Positions 26,584 through 64,000 of a stretch of DNA of 64,000 nt are shown here, piece after piece. How positions within the stretch are numbered: the stretch's first letter is position 1; every line of letters starts with the position of its first letter. The notes beneath the pieces were generated by a model that saw only the letters and a program-made list of their open reading frames with translations, did no database searches and had not been told where the DNA came from. The translations under genes and the position numbers were made by a program. Origin of the DNA: an uncultured Clostridia bacterium (GTDB taxonomy: Bacteria > Bacillota > Clostridia > Christensenellales > UBA1242); assembly GCA_944383245.1 (NCBI GenBank), contig CALWOU010000001.1:30524-94523 (forward strand). The letters run 5' to 3'.

Positions 26584-26955
26584 TTAAGCCTTCTTACTGC
26601 TTTTAGCAGTTTTCTTTGCTGTAGTTTTTGTGCTTGCTTTAGCATCTAATTTAGCACCGCATTTTTTGCAAACGCGCACTGATTTTTCATTTTCAATCAC
26701 GTGAGAAACGCGAGTAGCTTTTTTGCAAACAGGGCATACTACTTGAACGTTTGAAACGTCGATAGCACCCTCTGTTTTTAAAATTCCGCCCTTGTCGTCT
26801 TTACTGCGAGGTTTACGATGATGAGATTGAATGTTTACATTTGCAACAACCACTCTACCGTCTTGCCTATTAACCTCTAAAACTTCGCCTGTTTTTCCAG
26901 CATCTTTTCCAGCAAGAACAAGAACATTGTCGCCTTTTTTAACGCTTAATTTCAT
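26584..26955 (-). CDS. rplX: 50S ribosomal protein L24 with Cys4 ribbon and K/A-rich tail
   Basis: KOW motif KKGDNVLVLAGKDAGKTG, then CPVC-x18-CKKC, then the tail AKASTKTTAKKTAKSSKKA. Confidence 0.95.
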   Translation of the reverse strand: MKLSVKKGDNVLVLAGKDAGKTGEVLEVNRQDGRVVVANVNIQSHHRKPRSKDDKGGILKTEGAIDVSNVQVVCPVCKKATRVSHVIENEKSVRVCKKCGAKLDAKASTKTTAKKTAKSSKKA

Positions 26956-26964
26956 CTTTTCCTC

Positions 26965-27333
26965 CTATATAACCTCTGGTGCAAGTGAAATTATTTGCAT
27001 AAATCCCTTTGCACGAAGTTCTCTTGCTATTGGTCCAAACACACGAGTGCCACGTGGTGCTTTTTGCTTGTCGATTAAAACTGCCGCGTTTTCATCAAAT
27101 TTGATTGAACTACCGTCAGCACGTTCAATTCCTTTTTTAGAACGAACGATAACTGCCATAACAACATCACCTTTTTTCACTTTTCCGTCTGGATCTGCTT
27201 TTTTAACAGAGGCAACAATGACATCGCCAATGTTAGCATATTTTCTAACTGAACCGCCTAAGCAACGGATGCACATAATTTTCTTTGCGCCACTGTTGTC
27301 AGCCACGTTCAAAGTTGATAATGGTTGAATCAT
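26965..27333 (-). CDS. rplN: 50S ribosomal protein L14
   Basis: [18 protein letters not shown]. Start trimmed to the ATG behind the SD TAGGAGG. Confidence 0.97.
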
Positions 27334-47580: not shown

Positions 47581-47907
47581 TTATTTTTCTACAATAAAAT
47601 AAAATGAATTCTGATCTTGTGGTAGTTTTGCGTAGCGGTATAAAATATCAAAATAACTATCTTTTTCTAAATCTATATTAAGCTTTTTATTCATAAGTGG
47701 ATTAAAAATTAGTTTATCCACAAATTCGGTGAAAAAGTATGGCAATTTTTTATATGTTTTTTTATCTACGTTCATCAACTCAAAATCAATAAAACCATAT
47801 TGAGTTTTAAATTTTTGTATGTCTCTAAGTGAAGTGTAGATATAAAGATTGTCTTTTTTTTCAATTTCGCCAATTGAAAAATCTTTATAGCAAACTTTTA
47901 TTTTCAT
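47581..47907 (-). CDS. HipA N-terminal-subdomain-like small protein (HipS-like candidate)
   Basis: MKIKVCYKDFSIGEIEKKDNLYIY..KKLPYFFTEFVDKLI..DSYFDILYRYAKLPQDQNSFYF parallels HipA residues 1-100 (LVTWMNNQRVGEL..FNFFDNLLPD..PFDLLSEIGRDSVGAV). The ATG sits 6 nt after GGAGG, inside the kinase 3' end. Confidence 0.55.
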   Translation of the reverse strand: MKIKVCYKDFSIGEIEKKDNLYIYTSLRDIQKFKTQYGFIDFELMNVDKKTYKKLPYFFTEFVDKLIFNPLMNKKLNIDLEKDSYFDILYRYAKLPQDQNSFYFIVEK

Positions 47908-49474
47908 CACCCACCTCCACTATTCCTAATTTTTTATCATATCTTAAACCTATCTTTTCAAGCATACTTTCATCTTGATAATTCTTGCTTTTTCTTATCA
48001 AAGCATTGAAACATTTAAGATATTTTTTTAATAATTTTTTGGTTTCTTTCAACTCTTTTTCTTGATCTAAAGAAAGATTCGTTTTTTCTTCCATATCTCT
48101 AACCCAAGCGCGCAATTCTTTAAAAGATGAATATTGAAGTGAGAAATCTGTTCGGGCATAATATTTTGATTTACTTTTATCTTGTTTTCTTGTATAAAAC
48201 ACTGAAGGGTCATCAAGTAAAAAATATTTCAATTGATCATAAGTTCTATGATAAACAATTCTCCTATCCATTGCCATCATTAGAGAAGTGGTGTTATATT
48301 TCTTACGTTTTTCATCTAAAATTTGTTTTGCTTTTTTAACCTCTTCAGAATCTAAATTATTTAACAATTCTTCGCATTCATCATACCATTTCCAAGTTGC
48401 CAATTCGCCTTTTGTTTGTTGCGTGAAATTTTTATAACTATAACTGTAACTTTCATCATTAAAATAATTGTCAAGATCGGCAGCAAAATATTGCAAAATT
48501 TTAGCAAATTCTTCAGGCGAATACTCATCTTTATGTCTTTGTATAACCGCATAAGTGACCTCTAGCGGAATGTATTGTACACCATCACGCCTAAATCTGC
48601 ACTGCTTAATTTTATCTTTTACGTTGGCTTGTGTTTTTTCTTTCCAACTATCTAATTCTTGCCTTGAAAATAGCGCATTTAAACCATAATAATTTTCAAA
48701 TTCCTCAATAGTTTCTTCAAACTTTTCACCAAAAAGTGTTTGAAATTTAATCAACATATCCTTATACGTTGAATTTAACAATTTTTGCTGTTCCATTCCA
48801 TAAATTTTGCAATCGTTAGGGCTTAATTTATACAATTTTGAATAAACTCTCAAAAAAGCATTAGCATTATCATAAATTGGTGCTAAATCAAGTTTTCTTA
48901 CTCCGTTTTCTTCTTTAATCACAAATGCCAAGTTTTCAGAGTGCCTATCTCTTTGGTTTATTAGATAGTCAAAGCAGGAAAGTTTATTTAATTTTTCTAT
49001 TAGTTCTTCGCGATTGATTTCAACACCTATTGTTTTTTTTGTTCTAAACATAATTGTATCCATAACCTCGCTTGACGTGGTTGATGACGAAGTGCTATCA
49101 ATATATCCGCCAAAATTATCATACATAAAATGCTCACCAAAATCGGGAGATATTATTCCAATCGCCTGTTGAATATGGTCAATTGCAAGTTTGCAGTCCA
49201 CACAATCAATGCCGACCTTCTTTGCAATAAACGATGTGAGAAGTTCAGCAAAAATTTCGTGTTGAGCATTTAGCGCGCCAAGTGTTGGATACTTAATGAA
49301 ATAACGTTTGCCATTAATCGTTATAAATTTGCTTGCCGTTATGCCTGTTTTTGAACTGAATTCTTCATTTTTTTCTTCAACAAAAACTACACCTGGTCTA
49401 GTAATACCATTTATATCAGCCACTTTTCTTTCAAATAATTTATCTTTTAAGCCTTCGTATAATTCTATATTCAT
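47885..49474 (-). CDS. HipA-like Ser/Thr kinase core lacking N-subdomain 1, with a ~300-aa K/E-rich C-terminal extension
   Basis: FDYLINQRDRHSENLAFV (D-x-H-x-x-N catalytic loop) and LAPIYDNANAF (Mg-binding D). KRYFIKYP..NAQHEIFAELLTSFIAKKVGI matches the HipA core layout. Confidence 0.7.
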   Translation of the reverse strand: MNIELYEGLKDKLFERKVADINGITRPGVVFVEEKNEEFSSKTGITASKFITINGKRYFIKYPTLGALNAQHEIFAELLTSFIAKKVGIDCVDCKLAIDHIQQAIGIISPDFGEHFMYDNFGGYIDSTSSSTTSSEVMDTIMFRTKKTIGVEINREELIEKLNKLSCFDYLINQRDRHSENLAFVIKEENGVRKLDLAPIYDNANAFLRVYSKLYKLSPNDCKIYGMEQQKLLNSTYKDMLIKFQTLFGEKFEETIEEFENYYGLNALFSRQELDSWKEKTQANVKDKIKQCRFRRDGVQYIPLEVTYAVIQRHKDEYSPEEFAKILQYFAADLDNYFNDESYSYSYKNFTQQTKGELATWKWYDECEELLNNLDSEEVKKAKQILDEKRKKYNTTSLMMAMDRRIVYHRTYDQLKYFLLDDPSVFYTRKQDKSKSKYYARTDFSLQYSSFKELRAWVRDMEEKTNLSLDQEKELKETKKLLKKYLKCFNALIRKSKNYQDESMLEKIGLRYDKKLGIVEVGDENKSLL

Positions 49475-50990: not shown

Positions 50991-51019
50991 TTGACAAATC
51001 TTTATATCGTTGATATAAT
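50991..51019 (+). promoter_or_regulatory. Consensus promoter TTGACA-17-TATAAT for the lipoprotein gene
   Basis: Exact hexamers at 50991..50996 and 51014..51019. Confidence 0.7.
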
Positions 51020-51153: not shown

Positions 51154-52200
51154 ATGAGTTTAATCAGTAAAATCACAGAAAAACTAAAAAACCCCACAAA
51201 TGGAAAAATTTTAAGGAAAGGTGTGGCAAGCGTGGCGCTCGCTTCAACGTTGGCGCTTTCTGGTTGCTCGGGGTTAGCATCAATATTTAATCCTAATAAT
51301 GGGCAAACTAACAATCCAAATATTGATAACGATAACCAAACGCAAATTGGTGGTGACGGAAGCGCAACCACCCCAGAAGAAGATCTTAGCGGTTTTAGCC
51401 AAATCACATACAACCTATTAGAAAATAGCTATTATAGAAATTTAATGGAAAATTATAGTTCAAAACAATCAGGTAGAGAATCTCAAATCTATGATCCAGT
51501 TCCTTATGGATTTTTGCAAAGTGAAGGATACAATATTGAAAGAATAAAAAATGATGAATTGGAATGTGATTCAATACCATATAGAAAAGACGGCGAAGAA
51601 AATAGTTTATATATAGCACTAAGAGTGGAAACCAACGCTCAAACTCCATATTACACTTGTTATACTTTAAAATATGAACTATCCAATCTAGAGATGTCTG
51701 ATTTTCATTATCTTCATATTAACACACTTTTTGAAGCTCCTTTATTTGTTCAAGAATTATCTTATCAAAAAACTCCTGTGGTTGAATCAGAAGCTAGCAT
51801 GACTATTGATTCATATAATGAGATATTGAAATCTTTACTCAGATATGACAATGTTTCATCAGATTTATTTGGTCATAAAAATTTAACAATTGATATAATT
51901 AAATTTTCTGTTCCAAACAATACACTAGAATTACAAATGAGACCGGCAAGTAGCGACAATGTTGTTGCTATTTCTTCTATAAGAACGGCTTATCTAATTC
52001 CTGGATTTCTAGGTCAAGAAGTTTCATCAGTTTATGATAATGTATATTCATATCCATACAGCGTTACATTTGAAAATCAAGATGATATGAATTATTATTT
52101 AAATAATTATGAATCAGTTACATACTATGACACGCAAAATAAATTTTTAACACAATATTATCTATACGATATGATTATGGAAGGAAAGACTAAATATTAA
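51154..52200 (+). CDS. Lipoprotein, unknown function (348 aa)
   Basis: Lipobox VALASTLALSGC. SD AAAGGAG. The mature part has no recognisable motif. Confidence 0.65.
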   Translation: MSLISKITEKLKNPTNGKILRKGVASVALASTLALSGCSGLASIFNPNNGQTNNPNIDNDNQTQIGGDGSATTPEEDLSGFSQITYNLLENSYYRNLMENYSSKQSGRESQIYDPVPYGFLQSEGYNIERIKNDELECDSIPYRKDGEENSLYIALRVETNAQTPYYTCYTLKYELSNLEMSDFHYLHINTLFEAPLFVQELSYQKTPVVESEASMTIDSYNEILKSLLRYDNVSSDLFGHKNLTIDIIKFSVPNNTLELQMRPASSDNVVAISSIRTAYLIPGFLGQEVSSVYDNVYSYPYSVTFENQDDMNYYLNNYESVTYYDTQNKFLTQYYLYDMIMEGKTKY

Positions 52201-52266: not shown

Positions 52267-55200
52267 TTAAGCTAAAACAACAATTCCACCAGTGTTTATT
52301 TCGTCACGTATTTCATTATTTGGATTGCCTTCATCATCTAGACCATCTACAAATGTTAAATATACTGTTCCACCACCTATTGAAATGCTTACTGATTCTG
52401 TGAAATAATATGCTCCGCCTATAGTTGAAGTTGGGAATGTATGTCCATCAAATAATCCAGGTTGCAAAATATTATCTATTGTTTGTGAATCATCGGTTAA
52501 ATATTTGTAACGAGTGAATAGTTGAATTTCGTTATTGGTTAAGAATTTATTGAGGTTATACATTTCGTCAATTTCGTTTGACACCAACGAACTAACTGCC
52601 AAAACACCATTTTGCAAAGAATAAGAACTAGATAATGCATATAGCGTATTATTTTTCACTTTATAGTTATAATCAACTCTATATTGATATTCATCTGTTA
52701 CTAATGTGCTAGGCTCGTAATCTGTTGGATCGTCTATGTAGTAATTAGATGAATTACTGCTATTTAAGAAATTTTTAAAATCAGTTAAATTATTTATTTC
52801 TCGAACACCTCCGTTGCTATTATAGAAAGTAAGTTTGTAACCCACTTTAAACAAATCATTATAGGTTTCATCCAAAATTTGATTATAAATACCTTTTACT
52901 GTTTCGCCATCAAATTCTGTTTCAAACATTTCATATCCACCATCGTAATAATAGTAAGTAGCGTTTTGTGTGATAGATATAGAGCTATCGGTAGCCGTTA
53001 TTGTGTAATAATTACTATCTTGAGCAGAACCTGTGAATGCAGTTTCATAAGGATTAGTAAATGAATATGGATAGATTTCAACCCAAACGCTATTGCTTGA
53101 TGAAGTTATTATTTCATTTATTTCAAATGCTCCTTCAACTGGGTCATCTTGAATATGTTCGATTTTGTAATAACCATATTCAACCATAGGTTCTCCGTTT
53201 TGATCGGTGGTACTGTGTGAACCTTGGATATAATCAATGCCAGGATTTCCATCAGGTTGAATGGTGCCTGCCCAAGTGAATTCTGCATATTTTTTCAAAG
53301 TGCCGTACATACCTATCCTTGCATAATATGCATTTTTCATATATGAGTAACCCTCATAATATGTTGTTGTGCGCTCTTGCCCAAATTCTCCACCTGTTAT
53401 TGTGAATGAACCATTACTTTCTTGAGGCAGATTACTTGATATCGTTTCATCGAAATAGAATGTTACAGGTCGATTATCTATATATGCCTTTAAATCTGCA
53501 GTTATTCCTGTTCCCCATGGCTCACCATTAACATAAAAGTTGCCGTTTCCTCTATCTTCTAATTTATTTCCATGGTTAGGTGTATATGTATACCCGTTAT
53601 CGGTAGTATAAGAACCTCTAATATAATACAAGTTATCATACAAAATATATTCGCCAGGATTTAACTCTGATAAATCTGCTAAAATTTGAGTTGGAGCATA
53701 TTCAACTTCAACACCGGCAGCAATTTTATAATAAGCGCCGTTATGATAAATATAATAACGATAAATATTACCAGTTTTTGTTTGTCCATTTTCAGTAAAC
53801 TCAAATGTGCCAGGTTGTGTTCTTGGATCTGAACTTTCTGTAATAGTGATATCTCTATTAGGCGCATTTCCTGAAGTTGTTTCTAGTGAATTGTTTAACA
53901 CCACGTTAACTGTGCTTGTCGTTATTGTAGGATCAACATATAAATAGTAGTTATCATAATAATCTGCAGGTCTAACTGATGAATAGTAAACATACACCAT
54001 TCCACCATATGAAGCTAAATTTTCATCGATAAAATTTATATTCCCATCACTATTATACAAAATTCTCTTGCTATAAGTTTGTGACATTAATCCAAGACTT
54101 TGATCCATTTTTTCAAAATAGGTTGTTTTTGCCATCATGTTAGCATTAACTGCAATGTTATATGTTGACATAACTAATACACCAATTCCTACACCAAGCG
54201 CAGGGGCAGCAAACCATACAGGAATAAATGCTAATCCCCATCCTCCAAGAGGAATACTTGCTAAAATAATAACTAACCCGGCAAGAATAGCTGTTATAAT
54301 GCTCAATATATCTACTTGTGGATCTGGGAAGATATTTTCTGCGATTGTGGTATTCGCTCCATTTACATTAAATACACTTCCGTCTTTTGGTAATTTTATT
54401 GCATCGTCAGGTAAGTCTGAACTTATTGTTTTATTATTATAAACTGTTAAAAATATAAAATACACACCGTCATAACCAGATGGTCCATCAAGATCATATT
54501 CGCCATTATAATAACCTACATTATAAACCAAAAATGCTAGGTCAATATCTGTCTGTCCATCTCCACCAAGCGTTGGAGCTCCATAATGTATTTCATAGAA
54601 TGGTTTGCTTAGGCTTTTTCTATCATTATTGGCATTAGGTGTTGCTGCACGTGTTTCATCGCCATATTGCCAATTAAAATAAGTTAATCCATTAAATTGG
54701 CTATTATTTCCGTGATTTAGGTCTATATAAAAGGTTTGAGAATTTGAATTGGCGCCGGTAATCCAGTCGCCTACCGCTTCCCACCATTGCTTTGTTTCTT
54801 GTTCATCATAATATGGGAAAGCATATCCTCCTTCTGAAGAAGTGTAAGGCGTGGCGACACCAATTGCTGAATATAGAGTTGGATAATCTTCCATTTCTTC
54901 ATATATTGTGTAAACAATATAATCATCATCATAGATGTTATTTGTCACGTGATCATTGCCTGGTTGAATAGCAAGGTCGTCTCTTCCAGATAGACCGAGG
55001 TTTGCGATTGTGCCGACTTTGGTTATGTTGGCTGCGTCGTAAACAACTGCGATTGAATCCCAACCAACAGAATTTTCGCTATTAGGATTTTCTTCTTTTG
55101 GAATGTTTCTTTGGAGTTTTCTAAATGTTGTGTATTCCTTTGCCCAACCTGAGATTGCGCCCGATTGCATATCGGCTGCGTCGTTGCCTGTTGGTTTAAC

Positions 55201-58200
55201 ATTTGAATTTATTGCAGTGTTATTTAAAGGACTTGATTTTGGAACAGTTTTGCTTGCTGAAATTTGGAATGTATCCAAATTCACATAGTAGGCTTGAGCA
55301 ATTAAGTTTATGTATTCGCTATTAGAATCGTCATAACTGAAACTGCTTGAACCATCCGCATAATTTGAATTTTCGATCGTGTTAATTGTGAATGGATAGT
55401 TATGAGTGCCTTGAACTGTTACTTCTCTTCTGTTGTCAGTTCCGCCTTTAGCAACTTTTAGCATACCAACAAGTCCACCAAAGTTGGTTGCAACATCTTG
55501 ATCTCCACCTATTATTAGACCATCAACATGGTTAGTGATTATCTGACCGGTGGAAGTCATTGTTTCTTGTGTTAGATTACCTTCCAATCTTCCGATAAGT
55601 CCGCCGATATAGTATGAATTGTTAGTGCTAAGAGAGATGCCAACCCTAACAGGATTATCTTGACTTTCTGTATTTAAAGCTAAAATTTGAATTACAGATG
55701 CATCTCCTTTCAACTTTCCGAACAATCCGCCAACATACATTCCATTGATAATAGCAAGATTAGTGGTTTCCTCTCCAACTGTTATTGAGCTAGGCTGAAT
55801 GTTGATTTCGGTAGTTGCCGACTCGCTATTTGATTTTACTTTGATATTAGCATTCGAGAAATTTGAAAGTGTATCATTAGTTTCTGGCATTCCCAATCCA
55901 CCAATAACACCGCCAACATTGTAAGCACCTGAAATATTAACATCACCTAACAAGTTTGGCAACAACACTTGCTCGCCAACTGTACCGCTTGTTGTGGTAT
56001 CATACAAGTAATAACCATAGAACGTGCCGACATTGACACCTGAATATGCCTGAATATCAACAGAAATGTTATTTGTGCTTGCGTTATTTTCAACATCGCT
56101 AGCAAGCGCAGACATATTAACCGAACCAATAAATCCACCAAAACCAGTTTGAATATCATTAAAATCAGGTTTTTTAATTTGATTTGAATCAGTTGGATTG
56201 GTTACTATTCGTGAATAATCAAAAGGTACGTCTGTTTTTATATAATCATTATTTTCTTGTGAATCTCCAACCATTAAACTTGCCATATTATTTGAAATTG
56301 TGGAAATAGTGCTTGAAGTGTCATTATCGGTTGAACTTGGTGCTTGAACACCTTCTTCTGACGAAGTGACTAAAACATCCAAAACATTGTTATACTTAAC
56401 TTCGCTAGAAGATACAAGCGTACCTATAAATCCACCTACGCTTGTTGGAACGTAATACTTCCACCTTGACGATGCTGTATTAGTGCTTTCATTAATAATT
56501 AATTCACGTTGTGCAAAATAAACGCCTTTAACTTCGCTTGAACTATCTTTTGCACCAACAATGCTATTTCTTATTGTTGTGCCACCTTGGACATAGCCAA
56601 CTAATCCACCGACACTCGCGTTTCCGTAAACATTACCTTGAGATAGGATTGAATCGATTGTTCCGCCCGTCATCAAACCGACTGCACCGCCAACGTTTAA
56701 CACTCCGTATACGTTTGATTCTGATGAAGATGCTTCTGTATATAATCCGAATGAGTTTCCTAGAATATCGTAATAAACATTTTCATTCTCTTGGTCTGTG
56801 TCAAACTTATAATTCGAATTACCAGAATCTGAATATATTCCACTTTCAGTTTTGTAATCCTTTCCATTTATCTCATTTGGAATGCCACTAGTTAAGTAGC
56901 CTTTATCCATATTTCCGATTACACCACCAACGTTTTGATAACCGGATATCATTGAATTATTTTTTAATGCGTATAAATAGACATCTTCTTCTACTCCACC
57001 GATATTTCCTATAACTCCGCCAACATTTATGCTCTTATAGCCATAGTAACTACCTACACCACCATTTTCATATAAGAATATGTTGTTGTCCTTATTATCA
57101 TCTATAGAATTGTACCAACTCCTATATTCAGGAGAGGTTGTTATCCTTCCCTCATTTGTTAACTTAGCAGCGACAGAACCTTCAAACAATCCAACCACAC
57201 CACCAACATTGACAATTTTCACATCTGAAACCGTTAGTTTTTCTTCGCCTGGTGTTCTAAAATTTATGTTAATTTGATTTTTGTTTTTTATTTCTTGCAT
57301 TGTGCGAGTGTTTCCATCTTCATTTTCTGAATATAAGAACAATTCGCTAGATTCGCCAGATTCGCTAGATTTGCTAGATTTGAATTTACCAAACAATCCA
57401 CCCCAATTTTGAAGAGTGAGAGGGAAGTCTGAGTCCGCTTGTGGAGTTGTAAGAGTTGCATAAGCATCGTCTGAAGCTAAGAAGTTCCAATAAGTTTTTG
57501 CTTCAACATCTTGGTTATTCCAATTGAAGTCTATTATTTCATTAATGTTTCCGCTAACCAAACCAATTGCTCCACCAACGTTTGTTACACCGGTGATTTC
57601 AACTTCATAGTTTCCTAAATTTTCATTGTTAATGTTGATTTTTCCGCCTGCATATGCACCTATAATTCCGCCAACATTGTAGCCATTGACTGTTAATTTT
57701 GTGTTAATTGAATCGTTATTGCCATCCTCTGAGCCTAAAGAAGCTTCAATTGTTCCATTCAGCATTTTTCCAACCAACACACCGTAACCACTATTTTCTT
57801 CAATCGATTCATCGGACAACACTTCCTCTACGTCAATTATGATTTCATCGTTATTTCCGCCGTGACTAAATCCTGAGATAGTAACATTGCCCTTAACCAA
57901 CTTTGCAACCAACAAGCCAAAGTAACTTTCAATTGTTTGATTATCGTCCTCGTCCGTTTGCGCTTTGGCTACAATATTTGTCACTTCGCTTGATGCTATA
58001 GAGCAATTTTCAATTGTCACAGATCCACCGTTTGCCTCACCGATTAGTCCGCCAAAACTATTAATGTAGAGTATGTTTCTTTCAGAAATTGAAGGAGAAA
58101 CAATAACTTCGTTTATTCCAGCTGAACTAGTCACAGTGCTTTCGCTAGTAGGCTCTATTGTTTGACCAACAAGTCCGCCAAGCATTTTAACTGCAATGTC

Positions 58201-61200
58201 CTCGTCTCCTGCGTGAAGATTAATAATTGTGTTGCCACCATTAATTGTTCCGCTTGACATTTGACCTATTAAGCCACCAGCATAATTTATCTGACCAAAT
58301 TTTGCGTGCCATTCAACATTTGGGTTATCATCTGAATCAATTGTGATCGTTCCGCCACTCATTCTGCCCGCTATTAGGCCCGCACTATTTGCTGAATCTA
58401 ACTCAAACGATGCAGTTTCTTCATCTGGCACAATTGTTGAGAAGTTTGTAATAGTTATATCTCCTGAAATAATTTCGCCGAATAATGCACCGATATAGTT
58501 GCCATTATCTGCTGTATTTTCCACTCCAAGACCTGTTATTTGGCTAATTTTCTCACGATTTTCAGCAACAAAACTAATATTTGCAACTGTGATTGAATTG
58601 TTTTGAGTTGGATCAATATTCTCTAGGTTAGTTGAATTAACTGTAACACCTAACGCACCGCTATTTTCTAAGTTGAGGAAATTTCCAAGTTTAATGTAGC
58701 CAATATATGCGTTATTTATATTAGTTAGTAAGCCATTGTGAGAAAGGTTTGTGATAGTTACAGCATCATCCAAACTTTCACTTTCGCTAGTTAAACCAGT
58801 GAATTTAAAGTTTTTATTAGATATTAATAGTCCATTAAATTTGTTTTGACCAGCGACATTATAATATAAATCAGAATCTCCAAAATTAGTATCTCTACCT
58901 ATTGCATTCCAATTTGTTGTGATATTTTGGTTATTGTTTATTCCGTCTAAATCATAGATAATCATATAATTTAGGCAGGTTGAAACAAATTCGCTCTCAA
59001 GAGTTGAATCATATGCATTTTTATTTACCCTAGTCAATCCTTGAATACTTGACAACACTCCTAAATGAGGAATTTTAAACACGTTATTCATTATTGAAGT
59101 ATCGGTTGCGCCGTTTGAGAAGTTGTTGATATCTAATTTAACATTTAAGTTTGCATCCTTGTTATCATCGTCCATATCACTTGTGATAGAACCCGTGCCT
59201 GTATACAATTGATGTGCTAAAGAATTTACCGTCCATTCGTTTTCAGTGGTGGTTGTAGACATCAATTTATTATCTCTTAGGATTGGATAGTTATAGTTGT
59301 AGCCATAAGTTTCAGCATATGGATTGATATAATAATTTACCACACCGTTGTTTGTTACAGAGTTGATAACAGTGTACCAATTTCCGTCCAAGAAAGGTTC
59401 GTTATCCTCATTTGTAACCTTCATAATATTTAAAGTGTCTGTTGCAACTAAACTTCCATTATTAATACCAATTGAATCATTCGATTCTATATTTGCAAGG
59501 CTATCGATGTAGTTCTTACTACCCACAAAACCTGTAGCAGATGCGTTAGAATCTAATTGATAATAATAACTATTTCCTCCCTCAGAAATATTTTCAACAA
59601 CACCCGCCATATAAGTGTTATAAACATATCCGTCTTCAACATAACCTATCATACCTGCTGCAGGATACTCATTATTGATATAACCTGTGAAATACGCATT
59701 TTGCAAGTTTCCATTGTTGTGCGCGATAAGTCCAGAAGTAAGTCCTGCACTTGTTAATAATATTTCGGCAGATGAATAGATATTTGAAGCAAAGCCTGAA
59801 TTTCTACCTATTATTAATCCTAAATCGCTTGATCTGCCTACTTCAATATTCAAGCCAACGCCTTGAACTGATAAGTTGTATGCAACACCTGAGTTTTGAC
59901 CAATAATTAAGCCAATTACATCATCATTGGAATTTAATATTACGTTTGTTGTGTCTGCCCCGCTTGTTAAATTGATATGAATATTTGATATCGCACTCTT
60001 ATCGTTTACGTTTGCAAATATACCTGTGTACGAATCCATCGTTGATAAATTTGAAGCGTTTAGTTGATAATCGTTTTCACGATCACCGCCAATAATAAAT
60101 CCGTTAATCTCTCCGTTATTATAACCATTGATTGCTTGAAGAGTTGTTACATTTGAACTAATCAAGTAATATGCGTAAGTGCTTGATATTAAATCGTATG
60201 AAGAGTTATTGTTTTCTATTACATATGGATTTAAAATGCTTCCTTGATTATACTGATATCCACTAGGCCCTGGCTTCAAAACAGAATGATTGATTAACAT
60301 CTGTTGCAAACTTGTGATATATGGCACTTTTGAACCAAGTTCAGACCATAGGTTAATCTCTTGATTACTTACGAAATTTCCGTTGTAATTATTCGTTGCG
60401 TTAACTAAAGTGTAAACCGGAATATTATATCCAACATTATCGTTTTGTGTTGTTAATGCTAAATCTGAAGAATAGTAAACATCTGTAATTGTGTTAGTGT
60501 TATTCTCGCCACCTCCCACAAAACCATACAACGCGCCCGAACTTACATAAGGTAAACTATTTCCAACAAGGTTATTTAAGAATATGCTAACTAGAGATAT
60601 AACTCTATTTAATTCTATCCTAGCGCTTGAACCCATTAATCCGCCTAAACGAATTACAGAACTACCAGCAATATAACCCGCGTTTTTAGGATAAATTCTT
60701 CCGACTGCAATTGAATCGGTGATTATAGCACTGTTTGCCGAACCAACAATTCCGCCAGCATATATTATATTAGTTGATTGTGAACCAATTTGTGCTTCTT
60801 CAACATATGCCATACTTTCACTTATAGAAACTGATGAACTTTGGTCTGCATTAGCAACAATTCCGCCATAGTAAATTGCAGATATGCTGTTTTCAGCGCC
60901 AAATGTGTTTACATTTCCTCTAAATAGATTTTGTTCTATATTCACTGTTGAAGTGTTCGCCTCAATATATCCCACTCCAAGCGAAACGTTTGCTAGCGTG
61001 CTAACACTCATTTCGCTTAAGTTAATATCTGCTGTTACTCCATTTAATCTAATAGGAGAATTAGACATAGCTCCACTTTGGTTAAAATATCCAATCAAAC
61101 CAGCAACATTTATATTGCTTCCAGCTGTTCCTGAAAGCTCTGATTGTGAACCTACTAGGCTTACATCTGCCAAAATTGTTGATGAAGATATACTAGAATC

Positions 61201-64000
61201 TACACTATAACCTATTGCGCCACCAACAGACATATACACATTCGCATTGATATTATTTGAATTTACAGTTATATCAACCTTTTGCGAGCTTAGATTTACA
61301 TCCAAATTTCCAAGACGAGCTGATGAAATTGACGCATTAGACGCATATCCCACTAGTCCGCCAACATACATAGGTTGACTTACATTGTCGTCAGCGGTTA
61401 ATGTAAATGATATTGTGCCATCGTCGTTTGATGTTGGACCAACATATGAAGATAAAATTGTCATATTTGAAGTGTAACCATTTTCATTTTCGCCAGTTTC
61501 TAAATCTCCACCACTTCCAATACTACGTACTGCACTTCCAACTAGTCCTCCGAACATAATTGCATCGCCCGTGTCATCCACAGTTGCGTTAACGTTACCA
61601 ACAAATGAACAACTTAAAATATTGCTATCTGTTGCGTATCCTACAATTCCACCAAAACCAGAAATTGAATTATTAGCATTTTGAATCATATATGGAATTT
61701 CGTCCGTCTCTTGATTAGATACACTTACACTTAAATTTGTGAATAATGAACCGGTATCTCTTGCTGAAACTCCGCCAAACATTTGAACGGTTGTGTTAAT
61801 TTGAACGGCTGATGGAACACTTATTGAATTTCTGCCCGTGTATGCTCCATTCCACTTAAAATTAATATTTCTAATTGTTGAATTTTCGGTTGATCTAAAG
61901 AAACCTGAATTCTCATTTCTAACTGTGTTGATAAACAATCCATACAATCTTGGAGTGCCTCCATTTGGCAACTCACCAACTAACACACCTGTGAAGTCAA
62001 CAGGTAGAACATAGTTGCTACCTTGTGCATTGCACCAATCGGACATATTAATGTCGTCAATAATTTTGAAATATCCGTCTGGATTATTAATAATCTCTTC
62101 AAAATCGCTTGCACTATCAATTTCAATATAGTTGCTTGCACCTTTATCTAACAATAATGGATAGTATTTTGTTGGGTCAAGTGTCCAATACTCTTCGCTC
62201 CAACCTGAGAACACTTCATAGAATATTGTCGCTTGCTCATTATTATCACCATAAATATCAAACAAGTCATCAAGGTCAATATTGTTTGAAGAATTTGATA
62301 AACTATTTTCTATTATATTTTGTTCGTTTAAATCAACAGTATATTCAACAAGTCCAGAGTAGACGTATGCAAGTGTTGAACTGTTTTCTGAAGTGATATA
62401 TTGTACATTGCTTGTATCTTCTAAATAGTCTGCTGAAATGTAATCAAATGTTACGTCGTCACCAAATTCACTTATCTTGCTATCATCTAAAAGCAAGGTT
62501 GAGAATGTGAAGCGAACATCGGTGTTTTGACTAGAAATATTCATTAATCGTTGTGCGATTGCTTCGTATTGCATATCATTTCGTGAAATGTGTGATCCAA
62601 TCTTTCCAACACCGTAAGCCGAACCCACTAAACCAGCAACATCGCTATACATATCTATGTTGTAGTCTAAATTGATATATGGAACAGCATAAGAATACAC
62701 AATTCTTGATGAATAACTTGAACCTATCAATCCTCCTACAACTTCGCCTGTTTTAATGCTTGCTTTGCTGTAAACTGAATTATAGTTTCCGCCAATGCTA
62801 AGACCAACAAGACCGCCGACATAGCCATAACCTTCTAGTAAATTTTGATTTCCATATTCGCCGTCTAATGTTGCCTCGCCGTTACGTAAATCGGTTACGT
62901 ATTTACCGAATGCGGTGTCGTAATCATACTGAGTTTCTTCTGGTGCGCTCACTTGAGAAGCAGTAATATCACCCATAGAAACTGCGAACAAACCGCCTGT
63001 TGCTTTTTGACCAAGAATTAGGTTTGTTGAGCCAACAATAAATTTAACGCGCAACGCATCTGTTTCGTCATTGATGTAGCCTGCAACACCACCAGCATAG
63101 TCTGCTTGTATGTTTCCGTTGTTGTTTGACCTATCATACATTTCAGTGCCTAACACATTGATATATGAGAAGTTAAATTCAACATTTTCTCTTTCAGTTA
63201 TGTCAACTACACCTGCAATACCGCCAGCATAAGATAATGTTCTAACATAATCATCATAATTGCCATAACTTAATATGCCAATATTTTTCATTGTGTTGAA
63301 GTCGGCTTCGTTGTAGTACAAATAGTAACTAGAATCAGTGTTAACCGCTCTAACACTTAGGTTCGAATCTATGCCATAAATTAAACTTGAACCTGTGATT
63401 CTACCAGCAAGTCCGCCTGCAAAGTTTTTGCCAGCAATAGTTGTGCTAGATCCGTCCAAACTTATGTTAATAATTGCCGAATTGTTTATTCTACCAGCAA
63501 GTCCACCCGAATTTTGAACGCTTACCGAACTGAATTGGTCATCTGTTTGACTTGTTGACACAAAGTTCAAATTCAAGTTTTTAATGTATGCATTTTCAAC
63601 GCGCGCAAATAGACCGATATCTACCGCACTTGTTGCATCCAAAACATCTAGGTAGATTCCGCTTATAGTCATTCCGTTACCTTCAATGCTTGTAACTGCT
63701 CTATTATTAACGTCGCCAAGTGTGAAGTTAACCCTAGTTTGAATGGCGCGAGAATCTGAAGCAAAGTCAATGTTATCGACAAATCTCACATAACCTGTCA
63801 TACTGCGGTTAGTTTCGGTTGAATTTTGAGTCATTATCTCGTTAAATTCGTCCACATTTCTAATTATGTGTGGATTATTTGCGCTTCCTGGCTCATAATT
63901 TACCGCGTTGGTGTAATTATAAACGACATAATCTTCTTCATCAGTTGTGCCAATGAAATACCTGTAACTATGTGCGACTAAGTTTGCATTTGTTAATTCT
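52267..64000 (-). CDS. Giant GLUG-repeat surface protein, N-terminus beyond the window (at least 3,911 codons in-window)
   Basis: The track lists 52267..63855 from a GTG. My in-frame translation of 63856..63999 (..ELTNANLVAHSYRYFIGTTDEEDYVVYNYTNAVNYEPGSANNPHIIRN-VDEF..) has no stop. At least 45 repeats of type [VFA]GG[LIVA][LIVA]G (VGGLVGYASNA, AGGLIGQMSSG, VGGVIGNMDKG..). Double TM at 54160..54309. Confidence 0.85.
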   Translation of the reverse strand, partial: ELTNANLVAHSYRYFIGTTDEEDYVVYNYTNAVNYEPGSANNPHIIRNVDEFNEIMTQNSTETNRSMTGYVRFVDNIDFASDSRAIQTRVNFTLGDVNNRAVTSIEGNGMTISGIYLDVLDATSAVDIGLFARVENAYIKNLNLNFVSTSQTDDQFSSVSVQNSGGLAGRINNSAIINISLDGSSTTIAGKNFAGGLAGRITGSSLIYGIDSNLSVRAVNTDSSYYLYYNEADFNTMKNIGILSYGNYDDYVRTLSYAGGIAGVVDITERENVEFNFSYINVLGTEMYDRSNNNGNIQADYAGGVAGYINDETDALRVKFIVGSTNLILGQKATGGLFAVSMGDITASQVSAPEETQYDYDTAFGKYVTDLRNGEATLDGEYGNQNLLEGYGYVGGLVGLSIGGNYNSVYSKASIKTGEVVGGLIGSSYSSRIVYSYAVPYINLDYNIDMYSDVAGLVGSAYGVGKIGSHISRNDMQYEAIAQRLMNISSQNTDVRFTFSTLLLDDSKISEFGDDVTFDYISADYLEDTSNVQYITSENSSTLAYVYSGLVEYTVDLNEQNIIENSLSNSSNNIDLDDLFDIYGDNNEQATIFYEVFSGWSEEYWTLDPTKYYPLLLDKGASNYIEIDSASDFEEIINNPDGYFKIIDDINMSDWCNAQGSNYVLPVDFTGVLVGELPNGGTPRLYGLFINTVRNENSGFFRSTENSTIRNINFKWNGAYTGRNSISVPSAVQINTTVQMFGGVSARDTGSLFTNLSVSVSNQETDEIPYMIQNANNSISGFGGIVGYATDSNILSCSFVGNVNATVDDTGDAIMFGGLVGSAVRSIGSGGDLETGENENGYTSNMTILSSYVGPTSNDDGTISFTLTADDNVSQPMYVGGLVGYASNASISSARLGNLDVNLSSQKVDITVNSNNINANVYMSVGGAIGYSVDSSISSSTILADVSLVGSQSELSGTAGSNINVAGLIGYFNQSGAMSNSPIRLNGVTADINLSEMSVSTLANVSLGVGYIEANTSTVNIEQNLFRGNVNTFGAENSISAIYYGGIVANADQSSSVSISESMAYVEEAQIGSQSTNIIYAGGIVGSANSAIITDSIAVGRIYPKNAGYIAGSSVIRLGGLMGSSARIELNRVISLVSIFLNNLVGNSLPYVSSGALYGFVGGGENNTNTITDVYYSSDLALTTQNDNVGYNIPVYTLVNATNNYNGNFVSNQEINLWSELGSKVPYITSLQQMLINHSVLKPGPSGYQYNQGSILNPYVIENNNSSYDLISSTYAYYLISSNVTTLQAINGYNNGEINGFIIGGDRENDYQLNASNLSTMDSYTGIFANVNDKSAISNIHINLTSGADTTNVILNSNDDVIGLIIGQNSGVAYNLSVQGVGLNIEVGRSSDLGLIIGRNSGFASNIYSSAEILLTSAGLTSGLIAHNNGNLQNAYFTGYINNEYPAAGMIGYVEDGYVYNTYMAGVVENISEGGNSYYYQLDSNASATGFVGSKNYIDSLANIESNDSIGINNGSLVATDTLNIMKVTNEDNEPFLDGNWYTVINSVTNNGVVNYYINPYAETYGYNYNYPILRDNKLMSTTTTENEWTVNSLAHQLYTGTGSITSDMDDDNKDANLNVKLDINNFSNGATDTSIMNNVFKIPHLGVLSSIQGLTRVNKNAYDSTLESEFVSTCLNYMIIYDLDGINNNQNITTNWNAIGRDTNFGDSDLYYNVAGQNKFNGLLISNKNFKFTGLTSESESLDDAVTITNLSHNGLLTNINNAYIGYIKLGNFLNLENSGALGVTVNSTNLENIDPTQNNSITVANISFVAENREKISQITGLGVENTADNGNYIGALFGEIISGDITITNFSTIVPDEETASFELDSANSAGLIAGRMSGGTITIDSDDNPNVEWHAKFGQINYAGGLIGQMSSGTINGGNTIINLHAGDEDIAVKMLGGLVGQTIEPTSESTVTSSAGINEVIVSPSISERNILYINSFGGLIGEANGGSVTIENCSIASSEVTNIVAKAQTDEDDNQTIESYFGLLVAKLVKGNVTISGFSHGGNNDEIIIDVEEVLSDESIEENSGYGVLVGKMLNGTIEASLGSEDGNNDSINTKLTVNGYNVGGIIGAYAGGKININNENLGNYEVEITGVTNVGGAIGLVSGNINEIIDFNWNNQDVEAKTYWNFLASDDAYATLTTPQADSDFPLTLQNWGGLFGKFKSSKSSESGESSELFLYSENEDGNTRTMQEIKNKNQININFRTPGEEKLTVSDVKIVNVGGVVGLFEGSVAAKLTNEGRITTSPEYRSWYNSIDDNKDNNIFLYENGGVGSYYGYKSINVGGVIGNIGGVEEDVYLYALKNNSMISGYQNVGGVIGNMDKGYLTSGIPNEINGKDYKTESGIYSDSGNSNYKFDTDQENENVYYDILGNSFGLYTEASSSESNVYGVLNVGGAVGLMTGGTIDSILSQGNVYGNASVGGLVGYVQGGTTIRNSIVGAKDSSSEVKGVYFAQRELIINESTNTASSRWKYYVPTSVGGFIGTLVSSSEVKYNNVLDVLVTSSEEGVQAPSSTDNDTSSTISTISNNMASLMVGDSQENNDYIKTDVPFDYSRIVTNPTDSNQIKKPDFNDIQTGFGGFIGSVNMSALASDVENNASTNNISVDIQAYSGVNVGTFYGYYLYDTTTSGTVGEQVLLPNLLGDVNISGAYNVGGVIGGLGMPETNDTLSNFSNANIKVKSNSESATTEINIQPSSITVGEETTNLAIINGMYVGGLFGKLKGDASVIQILALNTESQDNPVRVGISLSTNNSYYIGGLIGRLEGNLTQETMTSTGQIITNHVDGLIIGGDQDVATNFGGLVGMLKVAKGGTDNRREVTVQGTHNYPFTINTIENSNYADGSSSFSYDDSNSEYINLIAQAYYVNLDTFQISASKTVPKSSPLNNTAINSNVKPTGNDAADMQSGAISGWAKEYTTFRKLQRNIPKEENPNSENSVGWDSIAVVYDAANITKVGTIANLGLSGRDDLAIQPGNDHVTNNIYDDDYIVYTIYEEMEDYPTLYSAIGVATPYTSSEGGYAFPYYDEQETKQWWEAVGDWITGANSNSQTFYIDLNHGNNSQFNGLTYFNWQYGDETRAATPNANNDRKSLSKPFYEIHYGAPTLGGDGQTDIDLAFLVYNVGYYNGEYDLDGPSGYDGVYFIFLTVYNNKTISSDLPDDAIKLPKDGSVFNVNGANTTIAENIFPDPQVDILSIITAILAGLVIILASIPLGGWGLAFIPVWFAAPALGVGIGVLVMSTYNIAVNANMMAKTTYFEKMDQSLGLMSQTYSKRILYNSDGNINFIDENLASYGGMVYVYYSSVRPADYYDNYYLYVDPTITTSTVNVVLNNSLETTSGNAPNRDITITESSDPRTQPGTFEFTENGQTKTGNIYRYYIYHNGAYYKIAAGVEVEYAPTQILADLSELNPGEYILYDNLYYIRGSYTTDNGYTYTPNHGNKLEDRGNGNFYVNGEPWGTGITADLKAYIDNRPVTFYFDETISSNLPQESNGSFTITGGEFGQERTTTYYEGYSYMKNAYYARIGMYGTLKKYAEFTWAGTIQPDGNPGIDYIQGSHSTTDQNGEPMVEYGYYKIEHIQDDPVEGAFEINEIITSSSNSVWVEIYPYSFTNPYETAFTGSAQDSNYYTITATDSSISITQNATYYYYDGGYEMFETEFDGETVKGIYNQILDETYNDLFKVGYKLTFYNSNGGVREINNLTDFKNFLNSSNSSNYYIDDPTDYEPSTLVTDEYQYRVDYNYKVKNNTLYALSSSYSLQNGVLAVSSLVSNEIDEMYNLNKFLTNNEIQLFTRYKYLTDDSQTIDNILQPGLFDGHTFPTSTIGGAYYFTESVSISIGGGTVYLTFVDGLDDEGNPNNEIRDEINTGGIVVLA

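What the first reader, a model, noticed from the sequence alone, without database searches (positions are those of the whole stretch)
52267..54309. Mid-chain double-TM segment followed by a 630-aa Tyr/Asn/Gly-rich distal domain in the giant protein
After more than 3,200 residues of repeats, the protein has two back-to-back hydrophobic helices. These are ILSIITAILAGLVIILASIPLGG (54241..54309) and WGLAFIPVWFAAPALGVGIGVLVMSTY (54160..54240), with essentially no loop between them.

A further 630 residues follow. Their composition (YYxY, NG and TT runs, few charged clusters) looks extracellular and beta-rich rather than cytoplasmic.

A TM hairpin would put both huge domains on the same side of the membrane. 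That anchors the protein from the middle, rather than by an N-terminal signal anchor, a lipobox or a C-terminal sortase signal. No LPxTG is present at the C-terminus. I do not know a described precedent for this architecture among GLUG proteins.
Basis: inference. Interest (0 to 1): 0.55.

Follow-up and report, generated by a model that had tools for sequence, protein, structure and literature searches.

The report
Membrane hairpin anchor in giant surface protein
A giant surface protein of a tiny-genome gut Clostridium (Onthoplasma, family UBA1242) is very probably pinned to its own membrane by a conserved two-helix hairpin near its C-terminal end, followed by a 630-residue outward-facing domain unlike anything described; this is an unusual anchoring variant, not a new kind of system.

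Summary
On the minus strand, codons 54241-54309 and 54160-54240 encode two abutting hydrophobic segments. They form the only 60-residue uncharged stretch in at least 3,910 residues, and 630 Tyr/Asn/Thr-rich residues follow.

The gene runs off the window, so the N-terminus is unseen. A relative shows about 3,100 more residues upstream, starting with a lipoprotein signal peptide. The hairpin therefore sits at roughly 90% of a protein of about 7,000 aa, not at its middle.

The same layout recurs, collinear and uninterrupted, in about 9 genome loci and 22 database representatives. Those that carry an organism name are Onthoplasma or uncultured-Clostridia MAGs; the representatives carry none. In most relatives the two helices are separated by a loop with 3-14 Lys/Arg and no acidic residues. 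Both flanks have the Lys-poor composition of this organism's exported proteins. This supports an N-out/loop-in/C-out hairpin.

The C-terminal domain has no Pfam, NCBIfam, PHROG, PDB or Foldseek match. AlphaFold models are low-confidence and beta-rich.

A lipoprotein gene is conserved tail-to-tail next to the giant gene.

The closest precedent for a TM pair in GLUG/M26 proteins is the streptococcal Zmp/IgA1 proteases, where the pair is N-terminal.

Verdict: a real feature and a new variant of a known kind. Function is inferred, not shown.

The parts
52267..64000 (-). Giant ORF, 5'-truncated by the window end. At least 3,910 codons plus the stop at 52267-52269.
   Evidence: no stop codon between 63855 and 64000; collinear over 3,909 aa with the Ca. 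Onthoplasma faecipullorum ortholog (L002) at 48.5% identity.
54700..63999 (-). N-terminal extracellular repeat region (aa 1-3100 of the in-window frame). It carries 28 GLUG-like GG[LIVFA][LIVFAT]G motifs, the last at aa 2841.
   Evidence: motif count. (Glug 24.4 bits against a cut-off of 20.5; Peptidase_M26_N 26.5 against 27.7, only when scanned in 1,000-aa pieces). (K+R 4.4%, N+T+S 29%).
54310..54699 (-). Conserved juxtamembrane module just before helix 1 (aa 3101-3230). Motifs: GLTYFNW, YFxF..Y.N.T, DGSIFNVNG.
   Evidence: Alignments A1 and A2. tblastn hits in L001, L002 and L003.
54241..54309 (-). Hydrophobic helix 1 (ILSIITAILAGLVIILASIPLGG, aa 3231-3253). Proposed stop-transfer segment running from outside to inside.
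   Evidence: Kyte-Doolittle 2.82; crude Hessa sum -3.4 kcal/mol.
54160..54240 (-). Hydrophobic helix 2 (WGLAFIPVWFAAPALGVGIGVLVMSTY, aa 3254-3280). Proposed re-initiating signal-anchor running from inside to outside. The PLGGWG turn joins it directly to helix 1.
   Evidence: Kyte-Doolittle 2.06; crude Hessa sum +3.1, marginal. A second hydrophobic segment sits at the same place in relatives.
52270..54159 (-). C-terminal 630-aa Tyr-rich, beta-rich orphan domain. Conserved motifs: YYSxxRPxDYY, GYxYMKNAYY, PxSFxNPY, TYYYYEGGY, YNxNKYL, YTRYKY, ESVxVxLGGG, and a terminal G-x-[IV]-x-[IV] strand.
   Evidence: Alignment A2. No family, PDB or fold match. AF2 models are beta-rich with pLDDT 45-48.
51154..52200 (+). 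Convergent neighbour gene: a 348-aa lipoprotein (lipobox LSGC, Cys38) of unknown fold. It is conserved next to the 3' end of the giant gene.
   Evidence: sequence. (found tail-to-tail in L001, L002, L003, L005, L007, L008, L009 and L010). (every ortholog has a lipobox). (no family match).
50991..51019 (+). Promoter-like site with a perfect TTGACA-17-TATAAT and a TG extension, upstream of the lipoprotein gene.
   Evidence: 12 of 12 matches. This is a consensus match only.

Best explanation
**What it is.** The hydrophobic pair is a helical-hairpin anchor in the producer's own cytoplasmic membrane. Its topology is N-out, turn-in, C-out. It belongs to a very large surface protein of a genome-reduced Clostridium: an Onthoplasma-like member of Christensenellales family UBA1242. 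The protein has at least 3,910 aa in the window and an estimated 7,000 aa in full.

**Inferred export sequence**
1. An N-terminal lipoprotein signal peptide starts Sec export. This peptide is seen only in a relative.
2. The GLUG-type repeat region is threaded out.
3. Helix 1 stops transfer and partitions into the bilayer.
4. Helix 2 re-inserts as an internal signal-anchor and restarts translocation.
5. The 630-residue Tyr-rich beta domain therefore also ends up outside.

**Proposed roles.** The long repeat region is the exposed, fast-evolving part, probably for adhesion or contact. The conserved juxtamembrane module, the hairpin and the C-terminal domain would form a membrane-proximal base, possibly together with the conserved neighbouring lipoprotein.

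**Shown versus inferred**
- Shown: the sequence features, their conservation, the charge pattern and the composition.
- Inferred: the topology, the export order, and the adhesin and base roles.
For: - **The hydrophobic zone is real and unique.** It is the only such zone in 3,910 aa and far beyond shuffles.
- **Its position is conserved.** A hydrophobic zone sits 610-820 aa from the C-terminus in the open frame of every genome locus that covers this region. In 7 loci that frame exceeds 4,000 aa. It is also present in the independent metagenome proteins P0006, P0009, P0011, P0012, P0013 and P0016. The sequence of the zone itself diverges freely.
- **The loop charge fits the positive-inside rule.** Nine relatives have an inter-helix loop carrying 3-14 K/R and no D/E; in six of them it is 20-45 residues long. 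Hydrophobic moment is 0.45-0.61. The outer flanks carry acidic residues.
- **Composition points outside.** The C-domain has K+R 5.2%, Y 11.1% and N+T+S 27.4%. This matches the window's exported proteins: K+R 4.2% for the 1,082-aa signal-anchored protein and 7.2% for the lipoprotein. Among the 29 ORFs in the window with no N-terminal hydrophobic or export signal, all but two have K+R 12-22%. The exceptions are 8.9% (20608-21354) and 7.3% (26831-27328, a plus-strand ORF inside the minus-strand ribosomal-protein cluster that may not be a gene). The hydrophobic ORFs 1269-1907, 1768-2367 and 21973-23280 were set aside. C-domains of relatives have K+R 5.4-9.9%.
- **A relative has an export signal.** Its N-terminus has a lipobox signal peptide and no other hydrophobic segment in about 3,400 aa. 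One stretch beside the scaffold gap in L011 also scored and was discounted as out-of-frame reading.
- **The gene is continuous.** It reads without interruption in about 9 independent assemblies.
- **It evolves fast.** It is 48.5% identical to the O. faecipullorum ortholog, while RecD2 is 92.5%, L10 89% and L7/L12 99% identical. This is expected for an exposed surface protein.
- **A lipoprotein neighbour is conserved**.
- **Lineage context.** UBA1242 genomes are 0.76-0.92 Mb, lack standard transporters, and are thought to be partner-dependent (PMC12306168).
Against: - In the window's own protein there is no charged loop between the helices, so the positive-inside rule cannot be applied to it directly.
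- Helix 2 contains two Pro and five Gly and is marginal on the crude Hessa sum, at +3.1 kcal/mol.
- In some relatives (L002, L003, L004, L007) the second segment is only weakly hydrophobic, with Kyte-Doolittle means below 1.6.
- No dedicated topology predictor could be run.
- The AlphaFold models are low-confidence (pLDDT 45-48). They show neither a packed hairpin nor contacts between the two outer modules.
- The N-terminus of this particular protein was not seen.
- Adhesion and a base complex with the lipoprotein are pure inference. No fold or family gives the C-domain a function.
Confidence: 0.65

Rival explanations
1. Same export route, but helix 2 is a cleavable internal signal peptide. 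Signal peptidase would cut just after it. The 630-aa domain would then be released, or held non-covalently, as a separate extracellular polypeptide, and the repeat region would stay anchored by helix 1 alone. This is what has been proposed for the second hydrophobic segment of the streptococcal Zmp/IgA1 proteases.
For: - The Zmp precedent: two TM segments, the second proposed to act as a second signal peptide with cleavage site S2 (PMC3518915).
- Small-x-small motifs follow helix 2 in many members: AVNA|N in the window, LIA|S in L002, SIA|S in L005, VLA|S in L008, ALA|Q in L007, SMA|G in L004 and ATA|S in P0011. These were read.
- An Ala 3-4 residues before the conserved Y[YF] motif is present in about 10 of 14 sequences.
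Against: - AxA-like triplets are short and common by chance in Ala/Ser/Val-rich sequence.
- The conserved Ala usually has Q, M or D at position -3, which is a poor fit to the signal-peptidase rule. It also lies 10-13 residues past the hydrophobic core.
- There is no experimental or proteomic evidence.
- Conservation of the two modules as one ORF in all assemblies does not require cleavage.
Confidence: 0.2
2. Single-span anchor. Only helix 1 crosses the membrane. The second segment, and in relatives the Lys-rich amphipathic stretch, lies on the cytoplasmic face. The last 630 residues would then be a cytoplasmic tail domain.
For: - Helix 2 is marginal on the crude Hessa sum.
- The second segment is weakly hydrophobic in L002, L003, L004 and L007.
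- Giant Gram-positive adhesins such as Ebh end with one TM segment and a cytoplasmic tail (my own recall, not tested here).
Against: - The C-domain composition lies outside the 12-22% K+R range of nearly all cytoplasmic proteins in the window, and inside the range of exported ones: K+R 5.2%, here and 5.4-9.9% in relatives, with high Y, N, T and S.
- In the window, L001, L009, P0012 and P0013, the hydrophobic zone is 50-60 uncharged residues. That is too long for one span.
- The domain is beta-rich and acidic and matches no cytoplasmic fold.
Confidence: 0.1
3. The hydrophobic, amphipathic hairpin is not an anchor in the producer. It would be a membrane-insertion device delivered into a partner or host cell membrane, in the manner of translocator or toxin hydrophobic hairpins, by a partner-dependent bacterium.
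For: - UBA1242 is inferred to depend on partner cells and to lack standard transporters (PMC12306168).
- The inter-helix segments of relatives are cationic amphipathic helices with hydrophobic moment 0.5-0.6, a membrane-active character.
- One member gave a very weak SseC-family hit, E = 0.23.
Against: - A helix as hydrophobic as helix 1 (about -3.4 kcal/mol) would be expected to partition into the producer's membrane during Sec export. This rests on established knowledge of SecYEG stop-transfer.
- The SseC hit is not significant and occurs in 1 of 10 members.
- No secretion-system genes are seen next to the gene.
- The window's own protein has no amphipathic loop at all.
Confidence: 0.04
4. 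Assembly artefact or chimeric fusion of two genes at the hydrophobic region.
For: One database homolog (P0002) is called as a separate 878-aa gene.
Against: - That split is a 100-N scaffold gap with duplicated flanks, about 230 aa upstream of the hairpin. P0006 reads through it.
- The frame is continuous through the hairpin in the window and in L002 and L004-L009.
Confidence: 0.01

Closest known systems
Streptococcal M26 zinc metalloproteases (IgA1 protease/ZmpA, ZmpB, ZmpC, ZmpD)
   Same: - Large Gram-positive surface proteins that are the source of the GLUG and Peptidase_M26_N models, which weakly match the repeat region.
- They contain a pair of predicted membrane-spanning hydrophobic segments within the chain, and the polypeptide beyond the second one is exported (PMC3518915).
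   Different: - In Zmp proteins the pair lies near the N-terminus, directly after an LPXTG motif, and precedes the repeats and the protease. Here it lies after more than 3,200 repeat residues (probably more than 6,000) and precedes an orphan domain.
- No LPXTG is present in the in-window part.
- No HEXXH or M26 catalytic-domain hit was found.
Giant Gram-positive surface proteins (Apilactobacillus kunkeei Giant1-5; Ebh-type adhesins)
   Same: - Multi-thousand-residue repeat proteins that take up a large share of a small genome.
- An N-terminal export signal, a long repeat region, and a distinct conserved C-terminal module thought to hold the protein at the cell surface (PMC12863079).
   Different: - Giant1-5 have no TM segment and use SH3b-like wall-binding domains.
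- Ebh-type proteins end with one TM segment and a cytoplasmic tail (my own recall).
- Here there is a two-helix hairpin with a large extracellular domain after it, and no wall-binding domain was detected.
Giant membrane-associated proteins of ultrasmall predatory or episymbiotic bacteria (Omnitrophota 'Archaeovorins' and Dockerin-type giants)
   Same: - Giant genes in small-genome, partner-dependent or predatory lineages.
- A predicted extracellular bulk with TM anchors near the C-terminus in the Dockerin type. Attachment to other cells has been proposed (bioRxiv 10.1101/2023.11.21.568195).
   Different: - Those proteins exceed 30,000 aa, carry many TM segments and SecA-like domains, and have intracellular C-terminal parts.
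- There is no sequence relationship. This family is restricted to a narrow Clostridia clade.

Membership tests
GLUG-motif proteins (Pfam PF07581 Glug; PF05342 Peptidase_M26_N) | A match to the Glug or M26_N model at or above the Pfam gathering score. | tested here: inconclusive
   - Whole 3,910-aa protein: no family at E <= 0.01.
- In 1,000-aa pieces: Glug scores 24.4 bits against a cut-off of 20.5 in the first piece and 15.7 bits in another. M26_N scores 26.5 against 27.7, just below.
- 28 GLUG-like GG[LIVFA][LIVFAT]G motifs by regular expression, none after aa 2841.
M26 Zmp/IgA1 metalloproteases | A zinc-metalloprotease catalytic domain (HEXXH, Peptidase_M26_C). | tested here: not met
   No M26_C or other peptidase model matched, either the whole protein or the pieces.
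M26 Zmp/IgA1 metalloproteases | An N-terminal LPXTG followed directly by two hydrophobic segments. | tested here: not met
   - No LPxTG-like motif occurs in the in-window 3,910 aa.
- The hydrophobic pair lies 630 aa from the C-terminus, not at the N-terminus.
- The N-terminus of this protein is outside the window. The relative L011 starts with a lipobox signal peptide and shows no LPXTG in its first 60 residues.
Sortase-anchored (LPXTG) cell-wall proteins | A C-terminal LPXTG, then a hydrophobic segment, then a short positively charged tail. | tested here: not met
   No LPxTG. The C-terminus is ...EINTGGIVVLA, with no hydrophobic segment or charged tail.
Bacterial lipoproteins (signal peptidase II substrates) | An N-terminal signal peptide ending in a lipobox [LVI][ASTVI][GAS]C. 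| not testable with these tools
   - The N-terminus is outside the window.
- The collinear relative L011 has MRKKFSGIILSILVLCTCFFVTAC|KGK.
- Attempts to extend the window failed.
Helical-hairpin (N-out/C-out) membrane anchor | Two adjacent hydrophobic segments, each long enough to span the bilayer. | tested here: met
   Segments of 23 and 27 residues in 60 uncharged residues. Kyte-Doolittle maxima are 2.82 and 2.06. Helix 2 is marginal on the crude Hessa sum.
Helical-hairpin (N-out/C-out) membrane anchor | A positively charged cytoplasmic connecting loop (positive-inside rule). | tested here: inconclusive
   - The window's protein has no charged loop; the turn is PLGGWG.
- Nine relatives have loops with 3-14 K/R and no D/E: L002, L003, L004, L005, L006, L007, L008, P0011 and P0016.
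Helical-hairpin (N-out/C-out) membrane anchor | Both flanking domains are extracytoplasmic. | tested here: inconclusive
   Compositional evidence only. K+R is 4.4% in the N part and 5.2% in the C part, against 12-22% in nearly all cytoplasmic proteins of the window and 4.2-7.2% in its exported proteins. No topology predictor or experiment was available.
Rhs/YD-repeat or phage tail-fibre/receptor-binding proteins (considered for the Tyr-rich C-domain) | A match to the RHS/YD repeat models, a PHROG family or phage proteins. | tested here: not met
   - No Pfam hit at E <= 1 apart from three single-member noise hits.
- No PHROG hit and no phage tblastn hit.
- The best Foldseek hit (lambda gpJ) had E = 0.04 and probability 0.05, on a low-confidence model.

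The most novel reading that the evidence does not exclude
The conserved unit may be the membrane base of a cell-to-cell attachment structure. The unit consists of the juxtamembrane module, the TM hairpin, the orphan 630-aa Tyr-rich domain and the adjacent lipoprotein. It would let genome-reduced, transporter-poor UBA1242 Clostridia hold on to partner cells, and perhaps draw metabolites from them. That would be a Firmicutes counterpart of the attachment apparatus postulated for Patescibacteria, built on a protein family with no known relatives.
Probability: 0.2. Interest if true: 0.65.

Novelty: new variant of a known kind. Interest (0 to 1): 0.4.

Why it matters
UBA1242/Onthoplasma bacteria are widespread, uncultured gut organisms with genomes of about 0.8-0.9 Mb. 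They are thought to depend on other cells, and nothing is known about how they make contact (PMC12306168; PMC13155120).

A single gene of at least 11.7 kb, probably about 21 kb, would be roughly 1.5-2.5% of such a genome. It is conserved in position beside rplJL and evolves much faster than housekeeping genes. That makes it a prime candidate for the contact interface.

Three findings give concrete handles for metaproteomics, antibody or cryo-ET localisation, and structure prediction:
- the protein is held by an internal hairpin;
- an orphan domain lies outside the cell;
- the gene is paired with a conserved lipoprotein gene.

For protein-export biology, it would be an extreme case of a stop-transfer and restart event occurring after thousands of translocated residues. 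It is not a new principle.

Tried and rejected
- **Alternative genetic code.** Tables 4 and 25 left the ten longest open frames essentially unchanged, so table 11 stands.
- **Pfam on the whole giant protein.** Nothing found.
- **Family scans of the C-terminal module and relatives.** Pfam, NCBIfam and PHROGs gave nothing.
- **PDB sequence profile search.** Nothing found.
- **Phage tblastn.** Nothing found.
- **Two AlphaFold2 runs.** The 811-aa module used 18 sequences and the 630-aa domain used 23. Mean pLDDT was 44.9 and 47.8.
- **Foldseek against the PDB on both models.** No hit at E <= 0.001. The top hits (lambda gpJ, CDTb) have probability <= 0.05 and are not interpretable.
- **Homology between the neighbouring lipoprotein and the C-domain.** hhalign gave probability 1.6%, so this was rejected.
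- **Recovering the missing N-terminus.**
  - A k-mer protein search with the first 700 in-window residues returned only fragments.
  - A metagenome scan with the L011 N-terminus found nothing.
  - An exact-DNA scan with the window's last bases found nothing.
- **Wimley-White octanol scan.** It was too noisy in this aromatic-rich protein to separate the two helices.
- **Gene split at the hairpin.** Rejected.
Full report
**1. What is in the sequence**

The minus strand carries one open frame from the stop at 52267-52269 to the end of the window. The ORF list starts it at a GTG at 63855, but no stop lies between there and base 64000. The gene is therefore cut by the window, which shows only its last 3,910 codons. 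The standard code applies: tables 4 and 25 leave the ten longest open frames essentially unchanged.

Helix 1 is aa 3231-3253 (nt 54241-54309). Helix 2 is aa 3254-3280 (nt 54160-54240). Exactly 630 residues follow.

**2. Is it more than chance?**

Yes.
- This is the only zone in the protein whose 19-residue Kyte-Doolittle mean exceeds 1.6 (maxima 2.82 and 2.06).
- Its 50-residue mean is 2.0. Two thousand shuffles gave 1.03 +/- 0.16 with a maximum of 1.74, and the best 50-mer elsewhere in the protein is 0.81.
- It is the longest stretch without a charged residue: 60 aa, against 32 for the next longest.
- A crude position-independent sum on the Hessa scale (values recalled from memory) gives -3.4 kcal/mol for helix 1 and +3.1 for helix 2. 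The next-best segment anywhere scores +5.3.

Helix 1 is an unambiguous membrane segment. Helix 2 is rich in Gly, Pro and Ala and is marginal on its own. It is credible as the second arm of a hairpin. No DeepTMHMM or TOPCONS was available.

**3. Whose gene is it?**

The neighbours are rplJ-rplL, a HipA-like kinase, ComF, RecD2, a Mur ligase and the ribosomal-protein/EF-G cluster.

A scan of 185,579 species genomes with the C-terminal module found nine loci. The best is Candidatus Onthoplasma faecipullorum. The others are a Ca. Onthoplasma sp. MAG and 'uncultured Clostridia bacterium' MAGs. Gene order is shared. RecD2 is 92.5%, L10 89% and L7/L12 99% identical to O. faecipullorum. The window therefore comes from an Onthoplasma-like organism.

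NCBI places the genus in Christensenellales. GTDB places it in family UBA1242, whose genomes are 0.76-0.92 Mb. These genomes lack several glycolytic enzymes, ATP synthase and standard transporters, and the bacteria are thought to live off partner organisms (PMC12306168; see also PMC13155120).

**4. Is the architecture conserved?**

Yes.
- Seven of the genome loci hold an open frame of more than 4,000 codons running off the 10-kb flank (L003 and L010 lie on short contigs). Every locus that covers this region has a hydrophobic zone 610-820 residues before the C-terminus.
- The window protein aligns collinearly with the O. faecipullorum protein over 3,909 residues at 48.5% identity, and with more distant orthologs at 31-35%.
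- The family is rare. An exhaustive HMMER search of 1.84 billion representative proteins found 22 members. All that I inspected are fragments or C-terminal parts of giant proteins. The k-mer-based searches found only three to five.
- The one homolog called as a separate 878-aa gene (P0002) is split from its upstream 3,314-codon frame by a 100-N scaffold gap with duplicated flanks. P0006 reads through that point.

**5. Topology**

The relatives are more informative here than the window protein.

In L002, L003, L004, L005, L007 and L008, the two hydrophobic segments are separated by a 20-45-residue amphipathic stretch. P0016, L006 and P0011 have shorter loops. All nine loops carry 3-14 Lys/Arg and no Asp or Glu, and the hydrophobic moment is 0.45-0.61. 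The segments just outside the pair carry acidic residues. By the positive-inside rule, this places the connecting loop in the cytoplasm and both long arms outside.

In the window protein the loop has been lost, and the helices abut through a PLGGWG turn. The same is true of its closest C-domain relatives (L001/P0002/P0006) and of L009.

A second, organism-internal line of evidence is composition.
- Among the 29 ORFs in the window with no N-terminal hydrophobic or export signal, all but two have 12-22% Lys+Arg. The exceptions are 20608-21354 at 8.9% and 26831-27328 at 7.3%. The latter is a plus-strand ORF inside the minus-strand ribosomal-protein cluster and may not be a gene.
- The three proteins with clear export signals have 4.2-7.2% Lys+Arg and are rich in Asn, Thr, Ser and Tyr.
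- The repeat region has 4.4% and the C-terminal domain 5.2% Lys+Arg. C-domains of relatives have 5.4-9.9%.

The last 630 residues therefore look exported. I give the N-out/C-out hairpin 0.65, plus 0.2 for the same topology with cleavage after helix 2. I give a single span with a cytoplasmic tail 0.1, because helix 2 is weak in several relatives.

**6. The N-terminus and the word 'mid-chain'**

A relative on ENA scaffold L011 overlaps the first 286 in-window residues at 45% identity and continues collinearly. It has about 3,100 further residues upstream. The frame is interrupted only by a 10-N gap and one frameshift.

It begins MRKKFSGIILSILVLCTCFFVTAC|KGK, a lipoprotein signal peptide. Its roughly 3,400 residues contain no other hydrophobic segment, apart from a stretch beside the scaffold gap that I discounted as out-of-frame reading.

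If the window's protein is similar, it has about 7,000 residues. It would be lipid-anchored at its N-terminus and pinned again by the hairpin at about 90% of its length. This is an extrapolation from one relative. Two attempts to extend the window failed.

**7. The C-terminal domain**

It is well conserved, with these motifs: YYSxxRPxDYY, GYxYMKNAYY, PxSFxNPY, TYYYYEGGY, YNxNKYL, YTRYKY, ESVxVxLGGG, and a terminal G-x-[IV]-x-[IV] strand.

It has no detectable relatives outside this family.
- No Pfam, NCBIfam or PHROG match.
- No PDB sequence match.
- No phage match.

Foldseek found nothing at E <= 0.001. Its function is unknown.

I propose that it forms a membrane- or wall-proximal base together with the conserved 130-residue module just before helix 1. 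This is inference only.

**8. A conserved partner gene**

A 348-aa lipoprotein gene (51154-52200, lipobox LSGC) lies tail-to-tail with the giant gene. It occupies the same position in eight related loci, and every ortholog has a lipobox. It matches no family and is not homologous to the C-domain.

**9. Comparison with known systems**

The repeat region is only weakly GLUG/M26_N-like, and no protease domain is present.

The best precedent for a TM pair inside a GLUG-type protein is the streptococcal Zmp/IgA1 protease family. There, two hydrophobic segments follow an N-terminal LPXTG, and the second is proposed to act as a cleaved internal signal peptide (PMC3518915). Here the pair has a different position and different neighbours. 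No LPXTG is present in the part of the protein seen here.

Other giant Gram-positive surface proteins use wall-binding domains or a single C-terminal span (PMC12863079). Omnitrophota giants have many TM segments and SecA-like domains.

This is therefore a new variant of a known kind, a giant membrane-anchored surface protein, carrying an orphan C-terminal domain family.

**10. Verdict**

- The hairpin interpretation is supported by comparative evidence but remains unproven.
- The claims about the absence of other anchors and the absence of precedent are not supported.
- Interest is moderate. The attraction lies less in the hairpin than in what the whole locus may mean for how genome-reduced gut Clostridia contact other cells.

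Noticed in passing
window 63855-64000 (minus strand): The giant ORF does not start at the GTG listed at 63855. The frame stays open to the window edge, so the protein is N-terminally truncated here. A relative (L011) suggests about 3,100 more residues and a lipoprotein signal peptide.
   Followed up: partly
window 51154-52200 (+): A 348-aa lipoprotein of unknown family, with an unusually long Lys-rich stretch before its signal peptide. It is conserved tail-to-tail with the giant gene in eight related loci. A perfect TTGACA-17-TATAAT promoter-like site lies at 50991-51019.
   Followed up: partly
window 39883-43131 (-): A second large exported protein: 1,082 aa, an N-terminal signal anchor, K+R 4.2%, and a weak Peptidase_M26_N hit (28.6 bits against a cut-off of 27.7). 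It may be a smaller paralog of the giant's repeat region.
   Followed up: no
whole window (ORFs of 150 aa or more): There is a sharp compositional split. Nearly all cytoplasmic proteins have 12-22% Lys+Arg, while proteins with export signals have 4-7% and are rich in Asn, Thr, Ser and Tyr. This could serve as a simple localisation predictor for this lineage.
   Followed up: partly
window 47885-49474 (-) against L002 15318-16892: The HipA-like kinase gene between rplL and comF is only 54% identical to its O. faecipullorum counterpart. The flanking RecD2, L10 and L7/L12 are 89-99% identical. It is a fast-evolving gene in a conserved neighbourhood.
   Followed up: no
L001 9760-9859; L011 6351-6360 and about 10256: Public metagenome scaffolds break these giant genes at N-gaps with duplicated flanks or at frameshifts. 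Gene callers therefore report fragments of 454-2,952 aa. This hides the family's true size and explains why so few members appear in protein databases.
   Followed up: yes
L002, L003, L004, L005, L007, L008 (inter-helix loops): The loops between the two helices in relatives are cationic amphipathic helices that resemble membrane-active peptides, for example QGAKKLLKYVFKQIGKTV with hydrophobic moment 0.60. This loop is entirely absent from the window's protein and from its closest C-domain relatives.
   Followed up: partly
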